A stretch of DNA of 64,000 nucleotides from Muribaculaceae bacterium (lineage in GTDB: Bacteria; Bacteroidota; Bacteroidia; Bacteroidales; Muribaculaceae): assembly GCA_022508985.1 (NCBI GenBank), contig JAFLUA010000010.1, positions 7,476 to 71,475 on the forward strand, in the 5' to 3' direction. Below are positions 6,519 through 42,507 of this stretch, piece by piece. Position numbers and translations under genes: made by a program. The notes beneath the pieces are model-generated. The model searched no databases. It was not told the DNA's origin and saw only the letters and a program-made list of their open reading frames with translations. Each line of letters begins with the position of its first letter. The first letter of the stretch is position 1.

Positions 6519-7669
6519 TTAATGCTCTAAAATCGATATACCTATTAGCCCCGGGAGTAGTAATGCTTTTGGGGCTTTGTTCATGCGCTAATCACGGGAC
6601 AGACACTTCACAATCAGCAGTAATACAAATTGCAGATACCATCACTCATCATGCCGAGTATCTTGATATTTATGATAGTGTAGATGGTACAACTTTCATC
6701 GACATCAAAGACCCGTGGAACGATGGCAACTTCCTTGGCCGATATGCCCTTGTAAACAAAGATTCTACCATACCAAATAATATATCGGATAATTATGTTA
6801 TTATCCGCACGCCGGTCGAACGCATAGCTGCTTATTCTGCAATACACACCCAGGCCTTAGACGAACTTGGAGCCATTGGCAACCTCGTTGCTGTTGCCGA
6901 TGCTATCTATTTTCCATCGACCGACACTATCAGTGCCCTGCTCCGCTCCGGGGAAATTGTAGATGTTGGATCATCGCAAGCTCCTTCGGTTGAAAAACTT
7001 GCAATGCAACGGGTTGATCTTGTGCTCAGGTCGCCCATGCAAGGCATTATAGCGCCCAAATTGCCATCTACAATAGTCCCGATTGAGTGTGCCGATTATC
7101 TCGAGACAACACCTATTGGTCGCGCCGAATGGATTTTACTGCTTGGTGAAATATGTGATAAGCGCGATGTCGCGTCGCAAATTTTCAAAAACGTAGAAGC
7201 TCGGTATTTATCTCTTTGCGAGCGCGCAAAGGCGTCGTCATTATCAAACCCTAAAGTCATTACCGAATATGAGCAATCAGGTATTTGGTATGTACCTGCA
7301 GGAGAAAGCTATATGGCTCGCTTGCTCATTGATGCCGGAGCTGAATACCCTTGGGAAAACACCAGCGGGTCAGGCTCTTTGCCTCTCAGTTTTGAGAAGG
7401 TTGCGGAAAAAGCTATAGATGCCGACATCTGGCTATTGAGAACTTTTGGGTATACGCCCGACACACACTCGCTCATGGCTCAAAACGCTAAATATCGTAT
7501 GTTTAAGGCCGTCAAAAACAATGCCGTCTATGGTTGCGACACATCTGTAAAACCACTATTTAATGACTTGGCGTTTCATCCTGAACTAATATTGGCCGAT
7601 TACGTTGCAATTTTTCATCCCGATGTCATGCCCGGATATGAATTAAGGTATTTTTCAAAATCTAAGTGA
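6494..7669 (+). CDS. ABC transporter substrate-binding lipoprotein (iron-siderophore/cobalamin/heme type, BtuF/FhuD-like)
   Basis: Lipoprotein signal (..VMLLGLCSC). Lies upstream of FecCD-type permease and ATPase genes with overlapping or adjacent stop-start junctions. Confidence 0.8.
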   Translation: MSLPRRIVINALKSIYLLAPGVVMLLGLCSCANHGTDTSQSAVIQIADTITHHAEYLDIYDSVDGTTFIDIKDPWNDGNFLGRYALVNKDSTIPNNISDNYVIIRTPVERIAAYSAIHTQALDELGAIGNLVAVADAIYFPSTDTISALLRSGEIVDVGSSQAPSVEKLAMQRVDLVLRSPMQGIIAPKLPSTIVPIECADYLETTPIGRAEWILLLGEICDKRDVASQIFKNVEARYLSLCERAKASSLSNPKVITEYEQSGIWYVPAGESYMARLLIDAGAEYPWENTSGSGSLPLSFEKVAEKAIDADIWLLRTFGYTPDTHSLMAQNAKYRMFKAVKNNAVYGCDTSVKPLFNDLAFHPELILADYVAIFHPDVMPGYELRYFSKSK

Positions 7670-8697
7670 TGAAAAAACGGCACCATATAATACTATTAAT
7701 GCTTTGTGTACTCTCACTGGTTCTATTGCCAATAGGTCTGGTCGTTGGCGGTGTGCAATTTTCTGTGCACGACGTATTTAAGGTGTTATGTGGCAACTAC
7801 GGCGGTCAAAATGCCGAGATAGCACATTTTATAATCATAGAAAGCCGATTGCCGGCATTGATAACGGCATTTTTAGGGTGCGCCGCATTGTCTGTTGCAG
7901 GACTTATTATGCAGACTTGCTTTAACAACCCATTGGCAGGACCTTCCATTATGGGTATATCTTCGGGCGCAAGCCTTGGCGCGGCGTTAGTCATTATGCT
8001 AATGAGCGGAATAATAAGCACATGGGGCAATATTGCTATTATCATTGGTGCTACTGTTGGTGCAATGATTATACTTGGAATAATCGTGCTTTTTTCCGGT
8101 ATCGTAAAAACATCGGAAGTACTTTTAATCGTCGGTATACTAATAGGTTATCTCACAAACTCCGTCATATCCCTATTAAACTTTTTCTCAAGTGATAGCG
8201 CTGTACATTCATTTGTAATATGGGGCTTGGGCACGTTTTCGGCTGTTGGCACTGATAAACTTGCAATATTCTGCACCCTTTCTATATTGATGATATTGAG
8301 TTCGATGCTATATGCTAAGAGTTTGAACGCGATGCTTTTCGGAGAGCGATTTGCCCAAAACGTGGGAGTTTCGACTGCAAAAACACGCACTGCCCTCCTT
8401 TTCATCGCCGGAGCTTTGACTGCAGTAGTTACTGCCTGGTGTGGCCCTATAGGCTTCATAGGTCTTGTAGTGCCACACATTTCGCGTTTGATAATGGCAA
8501 GCTCTAATCATCGCATTTTACTACCCGCCACAGCATTATGCGGAGGCCTCATTGGACTTGTCTGCCAGATAGTATCGGTATGTCCGACCTTCAGCACCGG
8601 TGCTACAATACCGATTAATGCCATAACACCTTTTATCGGTGTACCTGTTATACTCTATGTTCTGATACATAGAAAGAAATTACTATATTTCAATTAA
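7666..8697 (+). CDS. Iron-chelate/cobalamin ABC transporter permease (FecCD/BtuC family)
   Basis: 343-aa polytopic protein with FecCD-like sequence throughout. 4-nt overlap with the upstream gene. Confidence 0.9.
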   Translation: MMKKRHHIILLMLCVLSLVLLPIGLVVGGVQFSVHDVFKVLCGNYGGQNAEIAHFIIIESRLPALITAFLGCAALSVAGLIMQTCFNNPLAGPSIMGISSGASLGAALVIMLMSGIISTWGNIAIIIGATVGAMIILGIIVLFSGIVKTSEVLLIVGILIGYLTNSVISLLNFFSSDSAVHSFVIWGLGTFSAVGTDKLAIFCTLSILMILSSMLYAKSLNAMLFGERFAQNVGVSTAKTRTALLFIAGALTAVVTAWCGPIGFIGLVVPHISRLIMASSNHRILLPATALCGGLIGLVCQIVSVCPTFSTGATIPINAITPFIGVPVILYVLIHRKKLLYFN

Positions 8698-21371: not shown

Positions 21372-21475
21372 GATTTCAATAAAAACTTGTTGCTTCCAGC
21401 GAGTGGCTCAAGCTCCGCGATGTGTGCATATTCCGCGCGATCGATTGTCCGGTGTTCTTAATCCTTTGTGATTAA
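21372..21475 (+). repeat. Repeat copy D: ~100-bp 3' stub of the W-X-Y module (frameshifted tail of ORF Y)
   Basis: ..EWLKLRDVCIFRAIDCPVFL.. in one frame. There is a 16-nt identity CGATTGTCCGGTGTTC with copy A (40036-40051) and a 1-nt deletion relative to A. Confidence 0.55.
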
Positions 21476-21486
21476 AAAATAATACT

Positions 21487-21494
21487 TACCTTTG
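21487..21494 (+). promoter_or_regulatory. Bacteroidetes -7 box TACCTTTG, 4 nt upstream of the ATG of the TfoX-like gene
   Basis: Matches TAnnTTTG. Confidence 0.45.
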
Positions 21495-21498
21495 CATT

Positions 21499-21813
21499 AT
21501 GGCTTGTTCACAGGAATATATAGATTTTATATGTGATGTTCTCGCTCCACTTGGAGAAGTCCGTTCTCGCAAGATGATGGGTGATTACGTCATATATGTT
21601 AACGAGAAATGCGTTATCACTGCTTGTGATAATAATGCATTTGTAAAGAAACTTGACTGTATTGCATCATTAATGTCGGACGCTGAAATCGGTTGCCCAT
21701 ACGAGGGAGCGAAAGAAGCATATATACTTGATTTTGCCGACCAACGTAAAGCAAGAGAAGTCATATCTATTCTGTGGGAGGCTTTGCCTTTCCCAAAGAA
21801 AAAGAAGAAATAG
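21499..21813 (+). CDS. TfoX/Sxy N-terminal-domain family protein
   Basis: 104 aa; RKMMGDYVIYVNEKCVITACDNNAFVKK resembles the TfoX_N core (KKMFGG.. LYLK). Confidence 0.6.
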   Translation: MACSQEYIDFICDVLAPLGEVRSRKMMGDYVIYVNEKCVITACDNNAFVKKLDCIASLMSDAEIGCPYEGAKEAYILDFADQRKAREVISILWEALPFPKKKKK

Positions 21814-22114
21814 TTGTCATTTCGTACCCAAGATACGGTCTATATCTTTGCTACCATCGCCTTGGCGCTTTGCCCCGCAAAGAACCTTACATGAGCGAAT
21901 GGGATAGCGAAGTCATCGGCTTGCCGCTTTCGTAGCTAAGCGGAGGAAGAACGCCAACGGCTCTATCCTCGAACTCCGTAACGTCATGTCACTTCGATAC
22001 GACTTTTACGGAGGTTGGCGAAACGTCAAAATCCTTTCGTCGGGCGAGTGTCGCAGAATCCGCGACGTCTGTATTTTCCGTGTTAATTCCCTCGAAGTGT
22101 TCCTTTAATCACAA
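21810..22114 (+). repeat. Repeat copy B: internally deleted W-X-Y module (5' ~75-nt conserved segment joined to a start-less 3' part of ORF Y)
   Basis: 21810-21885 is about 88% identical to 41743-41818. 21915-22108 aligns with 42306-42478 and with 39908-40057. The frame encoding ..RLAAFVAKRRKNANGSILELRNVMSLRYDFYGGWRNVKILSSGECRRIRDVCIFRVNSLEVFL has no start codon. Confidence 0.65.
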
Positions 22115-22142
22115 TCTTTTGGACTATCTCGTAACGAATGAG

Positions 22143-22150
22143 TAACTTTG
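22143..22150 (+). promoter_or_regulatory. Bacteroidetes -7 box TAACTTTG, 4 nt upstream of the ATG of the 22155 gene
   Basis: Matches TAnnTTTG. Confidence 0.45.
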
Positions 22151-22154
22151 CGAT

Positions 22155-22565
22155 ATGAATAAACGACAGCAACTTAAATTTTGCGATTGGACGTTACTAT
22201 TTCTTATGATAGTAACTCTTGCATCAAGTATTCAACTTGAAGTATCTGATAGCAGAAGCACAACATTCATTTGTCTTCACGCTATTATCGCATCTGTTTT
22301 TATTGGTTTTGTCGTTTATCACATTATATTACATTTTGGATCAAATAGATGGTTTTTTAAGTTCAGTAAACTTAAAAGCAGCGTTACACGTTTATTATGG
22401 TGGATAACTACAATTACAATTATTTCGGCTATTGTTGCTTTCATTCATTGGATAACTACATTTACTCATTCTCCCATTGGAGGGGTACACGGTAAAATAG
22501 GCTTCCTCATGATTTTGTTTGCAATAATTCATACCATAAAGAGAGCTGCTTTCTTCAAACGATAA
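22155..22565 (+). CDS. Four-TM membrane protein with conserved histidines (DUF4405-like)
   Basis: 136 aa with 4 predicted TM helices, each carrying His (..YHIILHFG.., ..FIHWITTFTH.., ..IIHTIKR). Confidence 0.5.
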   Translation: MNKRQQLKFCDWTLLFLMIVTLASSIQLEVSDSRSTTFICLHAIIASVFIGFVVYHIILHFGSNRWFFKFSKLKSSVTRLLWWITTITIISAIVAFIHWITTFTHSPIGGVHGKIGFLMILFAIIHTIKRAAFFKR

Positions 22566-22601
22566 AAATGCATAAGAGCCACGCTTTCGCGCAGCTCTTA
22601 T
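22564..22601 (-). terminator. Hairpin ATAAGAGC-N14-GCTCTTAT plus a T-run (minus strand) just after the tRNA-Ser 3' end
   Basis: 8-bp perfect stem at 22572-22579 / 22594-22601, followed on the minus strand by TTTTT. Confidence 0.55.
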
Positions 22602-22603
22602 TG

Positions 22604-39241: not shown

Positions 39242-39661
39242 AAACAAAAGAAATACAATTAATTACAGCACCTCAGAAGCCTGATAGTGCAATCTTCAAA
39301 ATCCTATATTTTCCCAACTTTTACCCCTTTCTCGCTTGACTCGGCTCGTAAGTTCTATTTCGTCAACTGCTTCAACATCGTTGAACAGCTGCCGCTTGTC
39401 TGCTCCACGACTGACAAGATAAGCTCCGACCGCTCCGTGGCGGTTATAGGTCGTGGCGCACAATTCTACGACGTTACCAACTCCAAGGAGTATGAGACCG
39501 AAACCGGACCTTTGACTTCCGACGAGTGCCGTCTTATTGAGCAAATGCTCCAATCGCCAAAGGTCAGGATACAATGAGGCTTCGAGTCGGATGTCGAGGA
39601 AGATTTCTTTGGTCATTGTTTATCTTTTAAGAAGTCCAAAGCGCTTCGCGATAACGACGCC

Positions 39662-39820
39662 ATGTTTGAAATTCTCATTACCGACTTCACTTGTGAGTTG
39701 TCGAACTCCGAACTTAACAAGGTCAAGTTCACATGGCAGTTTGCGGAGGCTACTCCGAAACTCAATCTTCCGACTACTCCGAGAATATTCAACTCCGTTT
39801 ATAACCCTGTCTATTCGTAA
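39662..39820 (+). CDS. Small ORF X (52 aa), ends ..RIFNSVYNPVYS
   Basis: Below the ORF-track cutoff. Its C-terminal codons are conserved with copy C (GIFNDKFNPVYS, stop 42222-42224), with synonymous changes gtc/gtt, tat/tac and tcg/agc. The frame is open back to 39578. Confidence 0.35.
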   Translation: MFEILITDFTCELSNSELNKVKFTWQFAEATPKLNLPTTPRIFNSVYNPVYS

Positions 39821-39823
39821 CCA

Positions 39824-40057
39824 ATGGCTCGCTCGATAGATATATCCACAGCTCGGCACATCCTTAACTCCGGCGACCCTGTCGATATTTCCGTTTGGAA
39901 ATCCGATGGCTCTATCCTCGAACTCCGTAACGTCATTTCTATTCGCTACGACTTTTACGGAGGTTGGAGAAATGTCAAAATCCTTGCTTCCGGCGAGTGC
40001 AGAAAATTGAGAGACATCTGCATTTTCCGCGTGAACGATTGTCCGGTGTTCCTTTAA
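39824..40057 (+). CDS. Small conserved hypothetical protein Y (77 aa): ..SGDPVDISVWKSDGSILELRNVISIRYDFYGGWRNVKILASGECRKLRDICIFRVNDCPVFL
   Basis: ATG lies 3 nt after the X stop. 12 of 21 differing codons versus copy B are synonymous in this frame. It is followed by its own palindromic terminator. Confidence 0.6.
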   Translation: MARSIDISTARHILNSGDPVDISVWKSDGSILELRNVISIRYDFYGGWRNVKILASGECRKLRDICIFRVNDCPVFL

Positions 40058-40080
40058 TCACAACGTTGTGATTATTTTTA
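40056..40080 (+). terminator. Perfect palindrome AATCACAAC/GTTGTGATT followed by ATTTTTA
   Basis: Read directly; overlaps the Y stop codon. Confidence 0.55.
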
Positions 40081-40199
40081 TAAATTTATTTATGTCATAA
40101 TAGTCTTTTCGCTATATTGTTTTTCCTTTAAGCTCCATTTTTACGCAAAATGTGAAAATTTCAGAGTAAAATTGAAAACATTATTAGATAAAAATATCG

Positions 40200-40226: not shown

Positions 40227-41060
40227 ATGAGAAAAGATGTAATGATATTGACCGGTGCAGGTCAAATAGGTATGGCGATTGCCCGAAGAATGGGATATGG
40301 AATGAAAATCATTATCGGAGACAAAAGTCTTAATAATGCACAGACCATTGCAAAGATAATGAATGACGCCGGTTTTGATTGTGAAGCCGTCGAAACCGAC
40401 ATTTCTTCAAGAGAGTCAATCTTAAATATCATAAATGTTGCCAAAAGTTACGGCGATATAAAAATGCTTGTTAATGCCGCCGGGGTTTCTCCCAGTCAGG
40501 CTCCGATTGAAGCCATTTTGAAAGTTGACCTTTACGGCACTGCCGTTTTGCTTGAAGAAGTCGGGAAAGTTATCTCGGAAGGAGGTACGGGAGTAACTAT
40601 ATCCAGTCAATCGGGTTATCGGATGCCGGCACTAACTCCACAAGAAGATGAACTATTGGCGACAACCCCAACCGATGAATTATTAAAGCTCGACATTCTT
40701 CAGCCGTCTGCCATACGCGACACCCTCCACGCCTATCAAATGGCGAAACGGTGTAATGTGAAACGAGTGATGGCCGAAGCCGTGAAATGGGGAGAAAGAG
40801 GTGCGCGAATTAACTCTATTTCTCCAGGCATTATCGTTACTCCGCTTGCTATTGATGAATTTAATGGTCCAAGAGGCGATTTCTACAAAAATATGTTTGC
40901 CAAATGTCCGGCTCGTAGACCAGGCACTGCGGATGAAGTTGCCAATGTTGCCGAACTTCTGATGCGTCCGCAAGGAGCTTTTGTCACAGGAGCAGACTTC
41001 TTGATAGATGGTGGAGCTACCGCATCATATTTCTATGGACAATTACGACCTCAAAACTAA
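40227..41060 (+). CDS. SDR-family oxidoreductase
   Basis: TGAGQIGMAIARR (TGxxxGxG), catalytic YQMAK (YxxxK), and the NAAG motif. Confidence 0.85.
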   Translation: MRKDVMILTGAGQIGMAIARRMGYGMKIIIGDKSLNNAQTIAKIMNDAGFDCEAVETDISSRESILNIINVAKSYGDIKMLVNAAGVSPSQAPIEAILKVDLYGTAVLLEEVGKVISEGGTGVTISSQSGYRMPALTPQEDELLATTPTDELLKLDILQPSAIRDTLHAYQMAKRCNVKRVMAEAVKWGERGARINSISPGIIVTPLAIDEFNGPRGDFYKNMFAKCPARRPGTADEVANVAELLMRPQGAFVTGADFLIDGGATASYFYGQLRPQN

Positions 41061-41073
41061 CAAAATAACGAGT

Positions 41074-41721
41074 ATGATTAAGAAATTTATCATCGGTCTT
41101 TGCTCAATTTTTAGCTTAACCGCTTGTGCTTCAAACTCAGACCAAAATAACGAAAACAATACCATTCAACAATCAGAAGAAATAAAAATGGACGGAAAAA
41201 AATTAGTAGTTTATTTCTCCCATAAAGGCGAAAACTACAATGTAGGTTATATCGAGAAAGGCAATACGGCTATCATAGCAGATATGATTGCAGAAGCCAC
41301 AGGCGCCGACAAATTCGAGATTGTGCCTGAAAAGGAATATCCAGTTAATTACAGTGAATGTATCGAAGTAGCACAACAGGAAAAACGAGACAATGCACGT
41401 CCCGCTGTCAAGGGAGACATCGCCATTGAGGATTACGATATAATTTTTATCGGTTATCCTAACTGGTGGGGCGAGGTGCCGATGTGTGTTTATGCTTTCA
41501 TCGAAAAACACGACTGGAACGGCAAAACCGTTATTCCTTTTATAACTCATGAAGGTAGCGGAATGGGTGGCACCGACAGCAAGATTGCAAAGGCTACGAC
41601 CGGCTCTAATACTCTCGTTGGCAAAGGGCTTGCCGTTCAGGGTAAAGTTGCACAGAAAAATCGTAAATCCGCACAAAAAAGTGTTGTAAATTGGCTGACA
41701 GGGCTTAATGTTAATAAATAA
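41074..41721 (+). CDS. Flavodoxin-like lipoprotein
   Basis: ORF 41008.. trimmed to ATG 41074 (MIKKFIIGLCSIFSLTACAS lipobox). Motifs LVVYFSHKGENY and FIGYPNWWG. Confidence 0.75.
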   Translation: MIKKFIIGLCSIFSLTACASNSDQNNENNTIQQSEEIKMDGKKLVVYFSHKGENYNVGYIEKGNTAIIADMIAEATGADKFEIVPEKEYPVNYSECIEVAQQEKRDNARPAVKGDIAIEDYDIIFIGYPNWWGEVPMCVYAFIEKHDWNGKTVIPFITHEGSGMGGTDSKIAKATTGSNTLVGKGLAVQGKVAQKNRKSAQKSVVNWLTGLNVNK

Positions 41722-41742: not shown

Positions 41743-42507
41743 ATAGTTGTCTTTTCGTACCCAAGAGACTGTCCATATCTTTGCTGTCATCGCCTTGGCG
41801 CTTTGCCTTGGCAAAGAATAAAGCAAAAAAGATATGGACTTTTTAGATTCTAACAATTCCGGATGCGCTCGGCAAAGCGCAAGCGAACTTGGCTCTGCAC
41901 TCACTGCACGGAAAGTCTTAATTTTAACTCCGTCGAGAACGTGCCCGGCTTCGAGGCTCGGGCAGCGTTCACTGTCAACTCTGCAACTGTGTTCACTCCC
42001 GTTGGTCGTGGCTGCTTCGCGGTCAAGGAAGACGTTGACATCGTGCCGATCATTATTGACGACACATTAAGTTATGTGCTGTGGGTGGCGACAACCAACT
42101 GCCCTATAACGTCATCGACCTTATAGAGAGGGACGAAACCCTCTCTACGTGCCAAGTGTTCAACGCCGAGGTCTGCTTCGGGTACGGTATCTTCAACGAT
42201 AAGTTCAACCCTGTTTACAGCTAAAGCTATATCACAAGAGGTTCGCATTACCACCGTACGAAAAATGCTCAACAGCGGTGACCCCGTCGATATTACGGCA
42301 TGGTTATCGGCTTGCCGCTTTCGTAGCTAAGCGGAGAAAGAACGCCGACGGCTTAATCGTTCACCACAAGCGTTGTATATCACTGCGTTACAACTTCTAC
42401 GGAGGTTGGCGCAACATCAAAATCCTTGCTTACGGCGAGTGCCGCAAGCTCCGTGACGATGCATTTTCCGCGTTGTAACGCGTGAAACGATTGGTGGTGT
42501 TTTTATA
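41743..42507 (+). pseudogene. Repeat copy C: full-length but disrupted W-X-Y module with the conserved 5' segment
   Basis: The 5' 75 nt is shared with copy B. The W-like frame is 41863-42126 (TAG). X-like ends NPVYS at 42224. Y is split by a frameshift near 42300-42315 (..MLNSGDPVDITAW / ..RLAAFVAKRRKNADGLIV..SLRYNFYGGWRNIKILAYGECRKLRD) and has a 10-nt insertion in its tail. Confidence 0.65.
41771..41844 (+). terminator. Nested hairpin: 12-bp perfect arms GTCCATATCTTT / AAAGATATGGAC enclosing CTTTGCC-TT-GGCAAAG, followed by TTTTT
   Basis: Arms at 41771-41782 and 41828-41839, inner palindrome 41801-41816, T-run 41840-44. It could terminate the flavodoxin cassette. The 5' arm also contains a TATCTTTG -7-like box. 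Confidence 0.45.

What the first reader, a model, noticed from the sequence alone, without database searches (positions are those of the whole stretch)
39824..40057. ORF Y (77 aa): synonymous-substitution signature proves a coding, selected small protein of unknown family
Seen in sequence: I aligned the last 50 codons of copy A with copy B (21958-22108). 21 codons differ and 12 of those are synonymous in the + frame: tct/tca, cgc/cga, aga/cga, aat/aac, tcc/tcg, tgc/tgt twice, aga/cgc twice, cgc/cgt, gtg/gtt and aac/aat. Six of the other nine changes are conservative (I/M, I/L, A/S, K/R, L/I, I/V). Comparing A with C over STARHILNSGDPVDISVW gives the same pattern, including a Ser tcc/agc codon-family switch. 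The conserved core is SGDPVDI-x-W ... RYDFYGGWRN(V/I)KIL-x-(S/Y)GECR(K/R)(L/I)RD. I cannot place it in any family I know. Its size and alternating hydrophobic pattern suggest a small beta-rich domain.
Basis: seen in the sequence. Interest (0 to 1): 0.6.

Follow-up and report, generated by a model that had tools for sequence, protein, structure and literature searches.

The report
Small phage gene beside the portal
ORF Y is a real, strongly conserved 77-residue protein of a family of gut Muribaculaceae phages, always encoded just upstream of the portal gene and predicted to fold like Hfq, and the copy in this window is a leftover of a decayed prophage.

Summary
ORF Y (39824-40057, +) is intact. 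Against fragment B, 12 of the 21 codons that differ in the last 50 are synonymous. pN/pS is 0.30 and dN/dS 0.21 in the Y frame only. A codon model on 18 diverse homologues gives omega 0.052; omega = 1 costs 312 log-likelihood units.

Y belongs to an unnamed family with no match in Pfam, PHROGs, NCBIfam, PADLOC or PDB sequences. It has 329 relatives, mostly 76-77 aa. Matches occur in 47 of 151 sampled Muribaculaceae genomes and in 55 viral contigs.

The order is TerL, X, Y, a variable cargo slot, then portal. In compact and distant relatives Y abuts or overlaps the portal start.

The AlphaFold model (pLDDT 81) is a helix plus a small beta-barrel. It is closest to Hfq (Z 6.0) and WYL domains (Z about 5), which is fold-level similarity only.

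This genome has no intact phage. Copy A sits among broken X and portal pieces and carries H6D at a position otherwise invariant. The selection signal is therefore inherited from phage life.

My best guess at function is a portal or neck accessory protein, at about 0.3. This scan had already reached the cargo-slot relic reading on neighbouring DNA of this window.

The parts
39824..40057 (+). ORF Y copy A: intact 77-aa gene (stop included)
   Evidence: 100% self match and the only full-length copy in the 2.07-Mb genome. It carries H6D, where H is found in 61 of 61 intact-context proteins.
39320..39820 (+).
   Evidence: tblastn with X380 and X366. The ORF list shows it split into 96-aa and 52-aa ORFs. 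The junction TAA-CCA-ATG to Y is the same as in intact phages.
40055..40085 (+). AT-rich 8-bp hairpin plus T-run that overlaps the Y stop; a possible weak terminator
   Evidence: Fold -8 kcal/mol, z -1.39, not significant. The terminator scan does not call it.
40227..41721 (+). Cargo genes in the slot downstream of Y: a short-chain dehydrogenase and a flavodoxin-like protein
   Evidence: Pfam adh_short_C2 at 1.8e-29 and Flavodoxin_4 at 2.4e-23.
41743..41807 (+). Repeat D3, the conserved segment that precedes the portal gene (second copy at 21810-21874)
   Evidence: The two copies are 91% identical. B and C share it.
41917..42191 (+). Relic of the portal gene (residues about 8-89 of 448, frame-shifted)
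   Evidence: tblastn with portal448.
42229..42457 (+). Y copy C, a pseudogene. Residues 1-25 are followed by a 37-nt palindrome-bearing insertion (42304-42340) that shifts the frame, then residues 27-64. The 3' end is degraded.
21912..22108 (+). Y copy B, a pseudogene. It has the same insertion (repeat D4) followed by residues 27-77. It equals copy C with 484 nt deleted.
21383..21463 (+). Y stub D: the last 26 codons only, directly upstream of a TfoX_N-like cargo gene

Best explanation
Y is a genuine protein-coding gene. It is a core gene of a family of roughly 45-kb tailed phages and prophages of gut Muribaculaceae. SHOWN: the order is large terminase, X (a variable beta-sandwich protein of about 370 aa), Y, an optional cargo slot, then portal. 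Y is under strong purifying selection and is usually 76-77 aa. In compact genomes and in relatives only 40% identical, which lack X, its stop lies within 40 nt of the portal start or overlaps it by 4 nt. SHOWN by prediction only: the fold is an N-terminal helix followed by a strongly bent beta-sheet barrel, closest to Hfq/Sm and WYL domains. INFERRED, about 0.3: Y is made together with the portal and acts at the portal or neck during or after DNA packaging. It could be a small, possibly ring-forming, head-completion or genome-retention factor. It would then be a positional analogue of lambda gpW and a phage-encoded counterpart of the host Hfq hexamer that T4 places on its neck. SHOWN for this window: no intact phage remains. 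Copy A is the one unbroken gene in a row of cargo-slot relics, and B, C and D are fragments. The codon signature is therefore inherited from selection in phages. It is not evidence of a present function in this bacterium.
For: Coding and selection: (omega 0.052, 2*deltaLnL = 624.6). Family size and length: 329 proteins at E <= 0.001 among 331 candidates, mostly 76-77 aa, and 189 representatives at 50% clustering. Phage origin: 55 IMG/VR contigs, nine of them 44-47 kb. Synteny TerL-X-Y-portal-DUF6712 protein-...-amidase holds across 80 genome loci and 55 viral loci. The portal assignment is weak (phrog_11226, E 2.9e-4) and the amidase assignment is strong (1.3e-60). Coupling to the portal: of 99 Y-portal pairs, 6 overlap, 39 lie 1-40 nt apart, 4 lie 41-200 nt apart and 50 hold cargo of more than 200 nt. 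Four distant loci have Y-portal with no X, two of them (L147, L148) with TerL upstream in the fetched stretch. Fold: pLDDT 81.1, pTM 0.67. The best match is Hfq 1kq1_A, Z 6.0, rmsd 2.6 over 59 of 60 residues, and WYL domains of DriD, CapW, BrxR and PafBC score Z 4.8-5.5. Precedent: T4 uses the host Hfq hexamer as a second genome gate on the gp13/gp14 neck (PMC12929587; I read the abstract and sections 7 and 10). The host genome, 99.94% complete, has no Hfq match. Relic status: only fragments of X, portal, TerL, p143 and p347 are in the genome. Among 87 Y matches in 151 family genomes, 40 are full length without stops, 2 are full length with stops, 32 are C-terminal stubs, 8 are N-terminal stubs and 5 are internal (my count of the table). 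Portal relics are mostly N-terminal stubs. H6D in copy A.
Against: No experiment or sequence-level homology ties Y to any function. Structural Z scores of 5-6 are middling by the tool's own note and small beta-barrels are common. Foldseek found nothing at E <= 0.001 in PDB or BFVD. Two of the five AF2 models were poor (pLDDT 45.5 and 37.7) and the conserved RY-x-FYGGWRN loop has the lowest confidence. Ring formation and portal binding were not modelled. Gene adjacency does not show a physical interaction. In half of the pairs cargo genes separate Y from the portal, so tight co-translation is not required. The Hfq-related fold would fit a nucleic-acid-binding regulator equally well. The portal call itself rests on a weak PHROG hit plus position.
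Confidence: 0.6

Rival explanations
1. Y is a stand-alone Sm/WYL-like nucleic-acid-binding protein that regulates phage gene expression. It could be an RNA chaperone or an ssDNA sensor controlling late or cargo genes, rather than an assembly factor.
For: The nearest folds are the RNA-binding Hfq and the ssDNA-binding WYL domains. BFVD rows include phage proteins named as WYL domain proteins. One Atlas neighbour cluster has WYL_2 on 13% of its members. Conserved Arg and aromatic residues lie in the loops. The host lacks Hfq.
Against: No HMM match to Hfq, WYL or WYL_2 in 45 diverse members. hhalign against five WYL_2 proteins gives probability 1.4% and covers only the first hairpin. The gene sits inside the packaging and head module, overlapping the portal start in distant relatives, not among early or regulatory genes.
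Confidence: 0.2
2. Copy A is a domesticated gene that the bacterium keeps for its own benefit, for example superinfection exclusion or a toxin-antitoxin part, as the first reader suggested should be examined.
For: A is intact while its neighbours X and portal are broken. Six relic loci elsewhere also keep a full Y beside a truncated or missing portal: G260 twice, G000, G247, G219 and G265. Pooled pN/pS of 15 unique relic copies (0.145) is no higher than that of 64 intact-context copies (0.182).
Against: Relic copies are mostly stubs: 32 C-terminal, 8 N-terminal and 5 internal against 40 full-length copies, most of which lie in complete clusters. This is what random deletion end-points around a retained cargo slot would give. 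A carries H6D at a position invariant in 61 of 61 intact-context proteins, plus three more rare residues. There is no PADLOC or NCBIfam hit. The pN/pS test has little power because most of the divergence predates decay. No RNA run was found to test expression.
Confidence: 0.07
3. Y is the small terminase or another DNA-recognition subunit of the packaging machine.
For: It lies next to the large terminase in compact genomes. Recurrent rearrangement break-points lie inside the gene at codon 25/26, as might be expected near a packaging site.
Against: Better candidates lie in the classical place. These are an HTH-like protein of 93-106 aa and a protein of 197-215 aa directly upstream of TerL, the latter overlapping its start in the loci read. 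At 77 aa with one short helix, Y lacks the usual DNA-binding plus oligomerisation helices (recalled architecture, not tested).
Confidence: 0.05
4. Y is not a gene, or is a fragment of a larger known gene.
For: None beyond its short length.
Against: Omega 0.052; a constant length of 76-77 aa in most of the 120 listed homologues, the longer ones being upstream ORF extensions; no family match for longer forms.
Confidence: 0.01

Closest known systems
Hfq / bacterial Sm-like proteins (Pfam PF17209)
   Same: The predicted topology is the same: an N-terminal helix followed by a strongly bent small beta-barrel. 59 of the 60 core residues of S. aureus Hfq superpose (Z 6.0, rmsd 2.6). The sizes are similar (77 aa against 60-100 aa).
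   Different: There is no sequence similarity: 0 Pfam hits in 45 members, and structural alignments show 10-16% identity. Sm1/Sm2 motifs were not detected. Hexamer formation is untested. Y is encoded in a phage head module, not as a host regulator.
WYL and WYL_2 domains (PF13280, PF10902), including small phage proteins named as WYL domain proteins
   Same: They share the Sm-like barrel (Z 4.8-5.5 to DriD, CapW, BrxR and PafBC). Small stand-alone phage versions exist. The first hairpin aligns with the corresponding WYL_2 hairpin.
   Different: The profile-profile probability is 1.4%. No HMM hit was found. WYL_2 proteins of Bacteroidales are 105-120 aa with a long helical N-terminus.
Host Hfq as an accessory genome gate on the T4 portal-neck complex (PMC12929587)
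   Same: It is a precedent for an Sm-like ring acting at the portal or neck to retain packaged DNA. Y has the same fold class and is encoded next to the portal.
   Different: In T4 the protein is the host's, is transient and is absent from the virion. The paper calls it a T4-lineage adaptation. For Y nothing beyond fold and gene position is known.
Lambda gpW, the head-tail joining protein of 68 aa encoded between terminase A and portal B (recalled, not from a call)
   Same: It has the same place in the gene order, between the large terminase and the portal, and a similar size.
   Different: As I recall, gpW has two helices and one hairpin, which is not a barrel. No gpW family hit appeared in the Pfam scans. 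The analogy is of position only.

Membership tests
Hfq (PF17209) / Sm-like | Significant match to the family HMM (Sm1/Sm2 motifs) | tested here: not met
   No Pfam family at E <= 0.1 for Y. No Hfq hit at E <= 10 in 30 close members or 45 diverse members.
Hfq (PF17209) / Sm-like | N-terminal helix plus a five-stranded, strongly bent antiparallel sheet | tested here: inconclusive
   The AF2 model has a helix at 7-14 and strands from 20 to 76. The best structural matches are Hfq chains at Z 6.0, rmsd 2.6-2.7 over 59 aligned residues. This is a prediction and the Z is middling.
Hfq (PF17209) / Sm-like | Hexameric or heptameric ring that binds RNA | not testable with these tools
   No multimer prediction or binding assay is available.
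WYL_2 (PF10902) | Match to the family HMM or profile | tested here: not met
   0 of 45 members hit it. hhalign of A2 against five WYL_2 proteins gives probability 1.4%, E 0.038, over 20 columns.
WYL (PF13280) ligand-sensing domain | Sm-like barrel fused to HTH/WCX regulator modules | tested here: not met
   Y is a stand-alone protein of 76-77 aa. The fold resemblance is Z 4.8-5.5 only.
Lambda gpW-like head-tail joining proteins (PF02831) | Small gene between the large terminase and the portal | tested here: met
   TerL-(X)-Y-portal in 135 loci, and TerL-Y-portal in L147.
Lambda gpW-like head-tail joining proteins (PF02831) | Sequence match to the family | tested here: not met
   No such hit in the Pfam scans of 30 and 45 members at E <= 10.
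Small terminase subunit | Gene directly upstream of, or overlapping, the large terminase; HTH plus helical oligomerisation core | tested here: not met
   Y lies downstream of TerL. Other candidates occupy the upstream position. Y has a single 8-residue helix.
Known anti-phage defence proteins (PADLOC-DB) | Match to any model | tested here: not met
   0 hits at E <= 1 for 7 diverse members.

The most novel reading that the evidence does not exclude
Y is a phage-encoded Hfq-like ring that docks on the portal or neck after packaging and acts as a genome gate. T4 is reported to borrow host Hfq for this job. These phages would have to bring their own because their Bacteroidota hosts have no Hfq. 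The very conserved, aromatic and arginine-rich RY-x-FYGGWRN loop would line the channel or contact DNA.
Probability: 0.15. Interest if true: 0.7.

Novelty: new member of a known kind. Interest (0 to 1): 0.35.

Why it matters
The finding gives a home and a testable role to an unnamed small-protein family. The family occurs in about a third of sampled Muribaculaceae genomes and in dozens of gut viral contigs. It marks the upstream edge of a hypervariable cargo slot, so it is a handy anchor for finding phage-borne accessory genes and their relics in gut Bacteroidales. If the portal-gate idea is right, genome retention by an Sm-like ring would be more general than the single T4 case. It would also show that the ring can be virus-encoded.

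Tried and rejected
Searches that found nothing:
- Pfam, PHROGs, NCBIfam and PADLOC scans of Y and of 30, 45 or 7 homologues gave no meaningful family.
- A PDB sequence search with the profile gave only a 16-residue resemblance to GH18 chitinase A (the YDFYGGW motif, E 0.32). I take this as chance.
- tblastn against 50,697 deposited phage genomes gave no match.
- Foldseek against PDB and BFVD gave nothing at E <= 0.001.

Tests that came out negative or without power:
- hhalign against five WYL_2 proteins was negative at 1.4% probability.
- The host-selection test of relic against intact-context copies showed no difference (0.145 against 0.182) and has little power.
- The hairpin after the Y stop is not significant (z -1.39) and the terminator scan does not call it.

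Expression: the search for sequencing runs listed no RNA holder. It returned only 7 DNA runs from 2 studies with small shares, so expression of copy A could not be examined.

Readings I considered and dropped:
- Translational bypass, read-through or a mini-intron for the 30- to about 60-nt insertions at codon 25/26. I saw no matched take-off and landing codons, and phages that carry such a stub also carry a second, intact Y.
- An integron-like cassette array. The flanks are pieces of Y and of the portal gene.
- X-Y read-through fusion. The X stop and Y start overlap by 1 nt, or are spaced, in different frames in different phages.

Literature: four searches found no paper that names this protein or this phage family's gene order. 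I saw only the listings and abstract starts, apart from PMC12929587. Supplementary files were not consulted.

Full report
**The observation**

tblastn of this protein against the window finds three further pieces:
- B at 21953-22105, residues 27-77, 78% identity.
- C split over two frames at 42229-42309 and 42344-42457.
- D at 21383-21460, residues 52-77. The finding does not mention D.

My codon-by-codon comparison of A and B gives 22 differing codons of 51, 12 of them synonymous.

Nei-Gojobori counting gives pS 0.481 against pN 0.144 in the Y frame. In four of the five other frames pS is close to or below pN (ratios 0.3 to 1.3). The one exception is an antisense frame with pS 0.375 and pN 0.174.

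**Formal test of selection**

I took Y coding sequences from the fetched loci: 71 in all (70 from loci plus copy A), 67 of them unique. I therefore kept sequences under 88% nucleotide identity to one another (38) and used the first 18 on a fixed nucleotide tree.

GY+F3X4 gives omega 0.052 with lnL -2069.95. With omega fixed at 1 the lnL is -2382.26, so twice the difference is 624.6 for one parameter.

**Family**

Y has no match in any of these libraries:
- Pfam or PHROGs.
- Pfam scans of 30 close and 45 diverse members, or a PHROGs scan of the 45.
- NCBIfam or PADLOC, with 7 members.
- PDB sequences, apart from a 16-residue resemblance to a chitinase motif at E 0.32.
- 50,697 deposited phage genomes.

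Y is nevertheless common. The word-indexed search gave 329 proteins at E <= 0.001 among 331 candidates. Most are 76-77 aa and those that carry a name are called hypothetical, for example in Duncaniella muris. The exhaustive search gave 189 representatives at 50% clustering. Many shorter or longer hits are fragments or fusions produced by decay. Homologues are therefore not pieces of a larger known gene.

**Genomic context**

One scan of GTDB genomes gave 161 confirmed loci, of which 80 were kept. A scan of IMG/VR gave 55 viral contigs, nine of them 44-47 kb. Mapping reference proteins onto all of them shows one gene order:
1. Large terminase.
2. A variable stretch and a basic 105-aa protein (optional).
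3. X, 366-380 aa.
4. Y.
5. Cargo of 0 to about 4 kb.
6. A 448-aa protein with a weak portal hit (phrog_11226, E 2.9e-4).
7. A DUF6712 protein.
8. Four more conserved proteins.
9. An amidase endolysin (phrog_822, E 1.3e-60).

In compact members the order is TerL-X-Y-portal with no gaps (L134, L135, L139-L142).

I examined four loci with Y only about 40% identical and the portal about 39% identical. X is absent from them, and in three of the four the Y stop overlaps the portal start by 4 nt (25 nt by my estimate in the fourth).

Over 99 Y-portal pairs the spacing is:

| Spacing between Y stop and portal start | Pairs |
|---|---|
| Overlap | 6 |
| 1-40 nt | 39 |
| 41-200 nt | 4 |
| More than 200 nt (inserted cargo) | 50 |

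The X stop and Y start are also tight. Of 92 rows, 19 overlap by 1 nt and 45 have spacers of at most 10 nt, by a crude measure.

Candidates for the small terminase lie upstream of TerL. Y is therefore a core gene of the packaging and head module, and its constant partner is the portal.

**Fold of Y**

AlphaFold2 with the 30-sequence alignment gives pLDDT 81.1 and pTM 0.67. The model has a helix at 7-14 followed by six strands. Two of the five models were poor, and the most conserved loop (RY-x-FYGGWRN) has the lowest confidence.

Foldseek finds nothing at E <= 0.001 in PDB or BFVD. The exhaustive structural aligner gives Hfq as the best match (1kq1_A, Z 6.0, rmsd 2.6, 59 residues aligned of 60). 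WYL domains of DriD, CapW, BrxR and PafBC follow at Z 4.8-5.5, together with other Sm proteins. The second look at Foldseek's candidates is dominated by Hfq chains.

By the tool's own calibration these Z values are middling, so I claim only the fold class. A language-model neighbour cluster carries WYL_2 on 13% of its members. I fetched five WYL_2 proteins from Bacteroidales genomes and compared profiles. The probability was 1.4%, and only the first hairpin aligned. Y is not a demonstrable member of Hfq, WYL or WYL_2.

**The neighbour X**

Its model (pLDDT 81.7) has two Ig- or macroglobulin-like sandwiches at residues 10-235. A C-terminal domain at 236-369 resembles the N-terminal domains of baseplate and distal-tail proteins at Z 7.0-7.5.

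X is far more variable than Y or the portal: 26-81% identity among 23 sequences. It is missing from the distant relatives, so Y does not depend on it.

**This window is a graveyard of that phage**

The own genome is 2.07 Mb and 99.94% complete. It has no intact X, portal, terminase or capsid-region gene. It has only these pieces:
- X residues about 218-380.
- Portal residues 8-89.
- A TerL tail.
- Stubs of p143 and p347.
- A near-full copy of the basic 105-aa protein (residues 1-101) at a contig end.
- One more Y stub on another contig.

B and C share a 37-nt insertion after codon 25 and the repeat D3. B equals C with 484 nt deleted.

In a sample of 151 genomes of the family, Y matches occur in 47. 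That is 43 of the 120 high-quality genomes and 21 of 35 genera. My count of the 87 matches in the table is:

| Kind of match | Count |
|---|---|
| Full length, no stop | 40 |
| Full length with stops | 2 |
| C-terminal stub | 32 |
| N-terminal stub | 8 |
| Internal | 5 |

Portal matches also occur in 47 genomes, and the partial ones are mostly N-terminal stubs. Relics thus cluster on the two edges of the cargo slot. This is what results if deletions remove phage genes but spare the cargo.

Copy A owes its integrity to where the upstream deletion ended. It also carries H6D at a position that is H in 61 of 61 intact-context proteins, plus three more rare residues. Relic copies pooled do not show a raised pN/pS (0.145 against 0.182), but the test has little power.

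I conclude that the codon signature was written in phages. An earlier follow-up of this scan on the neighbouring array at 21372-22603 reached the same cargo-slot-relic reading. I arrived at it from my own.

**Function**

What is shown: core status, strong constraint, coupling to the portal, and a predicted Sm-like barrel.

What is inferred: Y acts at the portal or neck. Two known cases make this plausible.
- Lambda gpW is a 68-aa head-tail joining protein encoded between terminase and portal. This is recalled and is an analogy of position only.
- T4 places the host Hfq hexamer under the gp13/gp14 neck as a second genome gate. It leaves when the tail joins, and yield is about 2-fold lower without it (PMC12929587; abstract and sections 7 and 10 read).

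The host here has no Hfq match, so a phage needing such a ring would have to encode it.

I rate this specific role at about 0.3, a nucleic-acid-binding regulator at 0.2, host domestication at 0.07 and small terminase at 0.05.

**Novelty**

The family is unnamed and uncharacterised, but it is a conserved hypothetical protein of a phage head module with a common fold class. I class it as a new member of a known kind, of moderate interest.

Noticed in passing
window 42304-42340 and 21912-21949; L094 9933-9985; also L003, L004, L009, L011, L028, L043, L050, L105, L114: Short palindrome-bearing insertions sit exactly between codons 25 and 26 of Y. They come in three related forms of 30, 37 and about 60 nt that share a TTTAGC-like core. 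In 10 loci a stub made of Y residues 1-25, the insertion and codons 28-30 lies directly upstream of a second, intact Y. Split copies at residues 25-29 recur in three genomes of the family sample (G000, G164, G169). The cause of this hot spot is unexplained.
   Followed up: partly
proteins P0121, P0132, P0137, P0152: There is a second recurrent small insertion after codon about 60 of Y (translated as II-A-L/F-A/E-L...). It shifts the frame in three of the proteins and is in frame in one.
   Followed up: no
L015 6855-7994 and homologues; window 39320-39820 (relic): Gene X upstream of Y is predicted to have two Ig- or macroglobulin-like sandwiches plus a C-terminal domain like baseplate and distal-tail protein N-domains (Z 7.0-7.5). 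It is hypervariable (26-81% identity) between conserved neighbours. It may be a surface or host-contact protein.
   Followed up: partly
own genome C1:315643-322081 and C12:6-281, C12:48649-48726: Further small relics of the same phage lie outside the window: a TerL tail, stubs of p143 and p347, a basic105 copy covering residues 1-101 at a contig end, and a Y stub. The C1 stubs again lie at the edges of places that hold cargo in intact phages.
   Followed up: partly
L013 6336-7877 and L040 about 7100-7880: A tyrosine integrase gene (Arm-DNA-bind_5, SAM-like and catalytic domains) lies immediately upstream of a 39-residue X tail and an intact Y. Another mobile element seems to have landed in X.
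   Followed up: no
L139 2052-4059: A ClpP-like protease candidate and a capsid-like 320-aa gene lie upstream of the terminase genes, while the portal lies downstream. This is an unusual head-module order, judged from sequence reading only.
   Followed up: no
proteins P0183 (1400 aa) and P0261 (840 aa): Two long cell-surface proteins (with WxL, SLH and Big_2 domains) match residues about 13-56 of Y in 7 and 5 repeated stretches (E 8.8e-11 and 8.5e-6). They may hold a repeat related to the first hairpins of Y.
   Followed up: no
window 39945-39965 (Y residues 41-48): The invariant YDFYGGW stretch equals a motif of GH18 chitinase A (3aro_A residues 364-379, E 0.32). This is probably chance.
   Followed up: no
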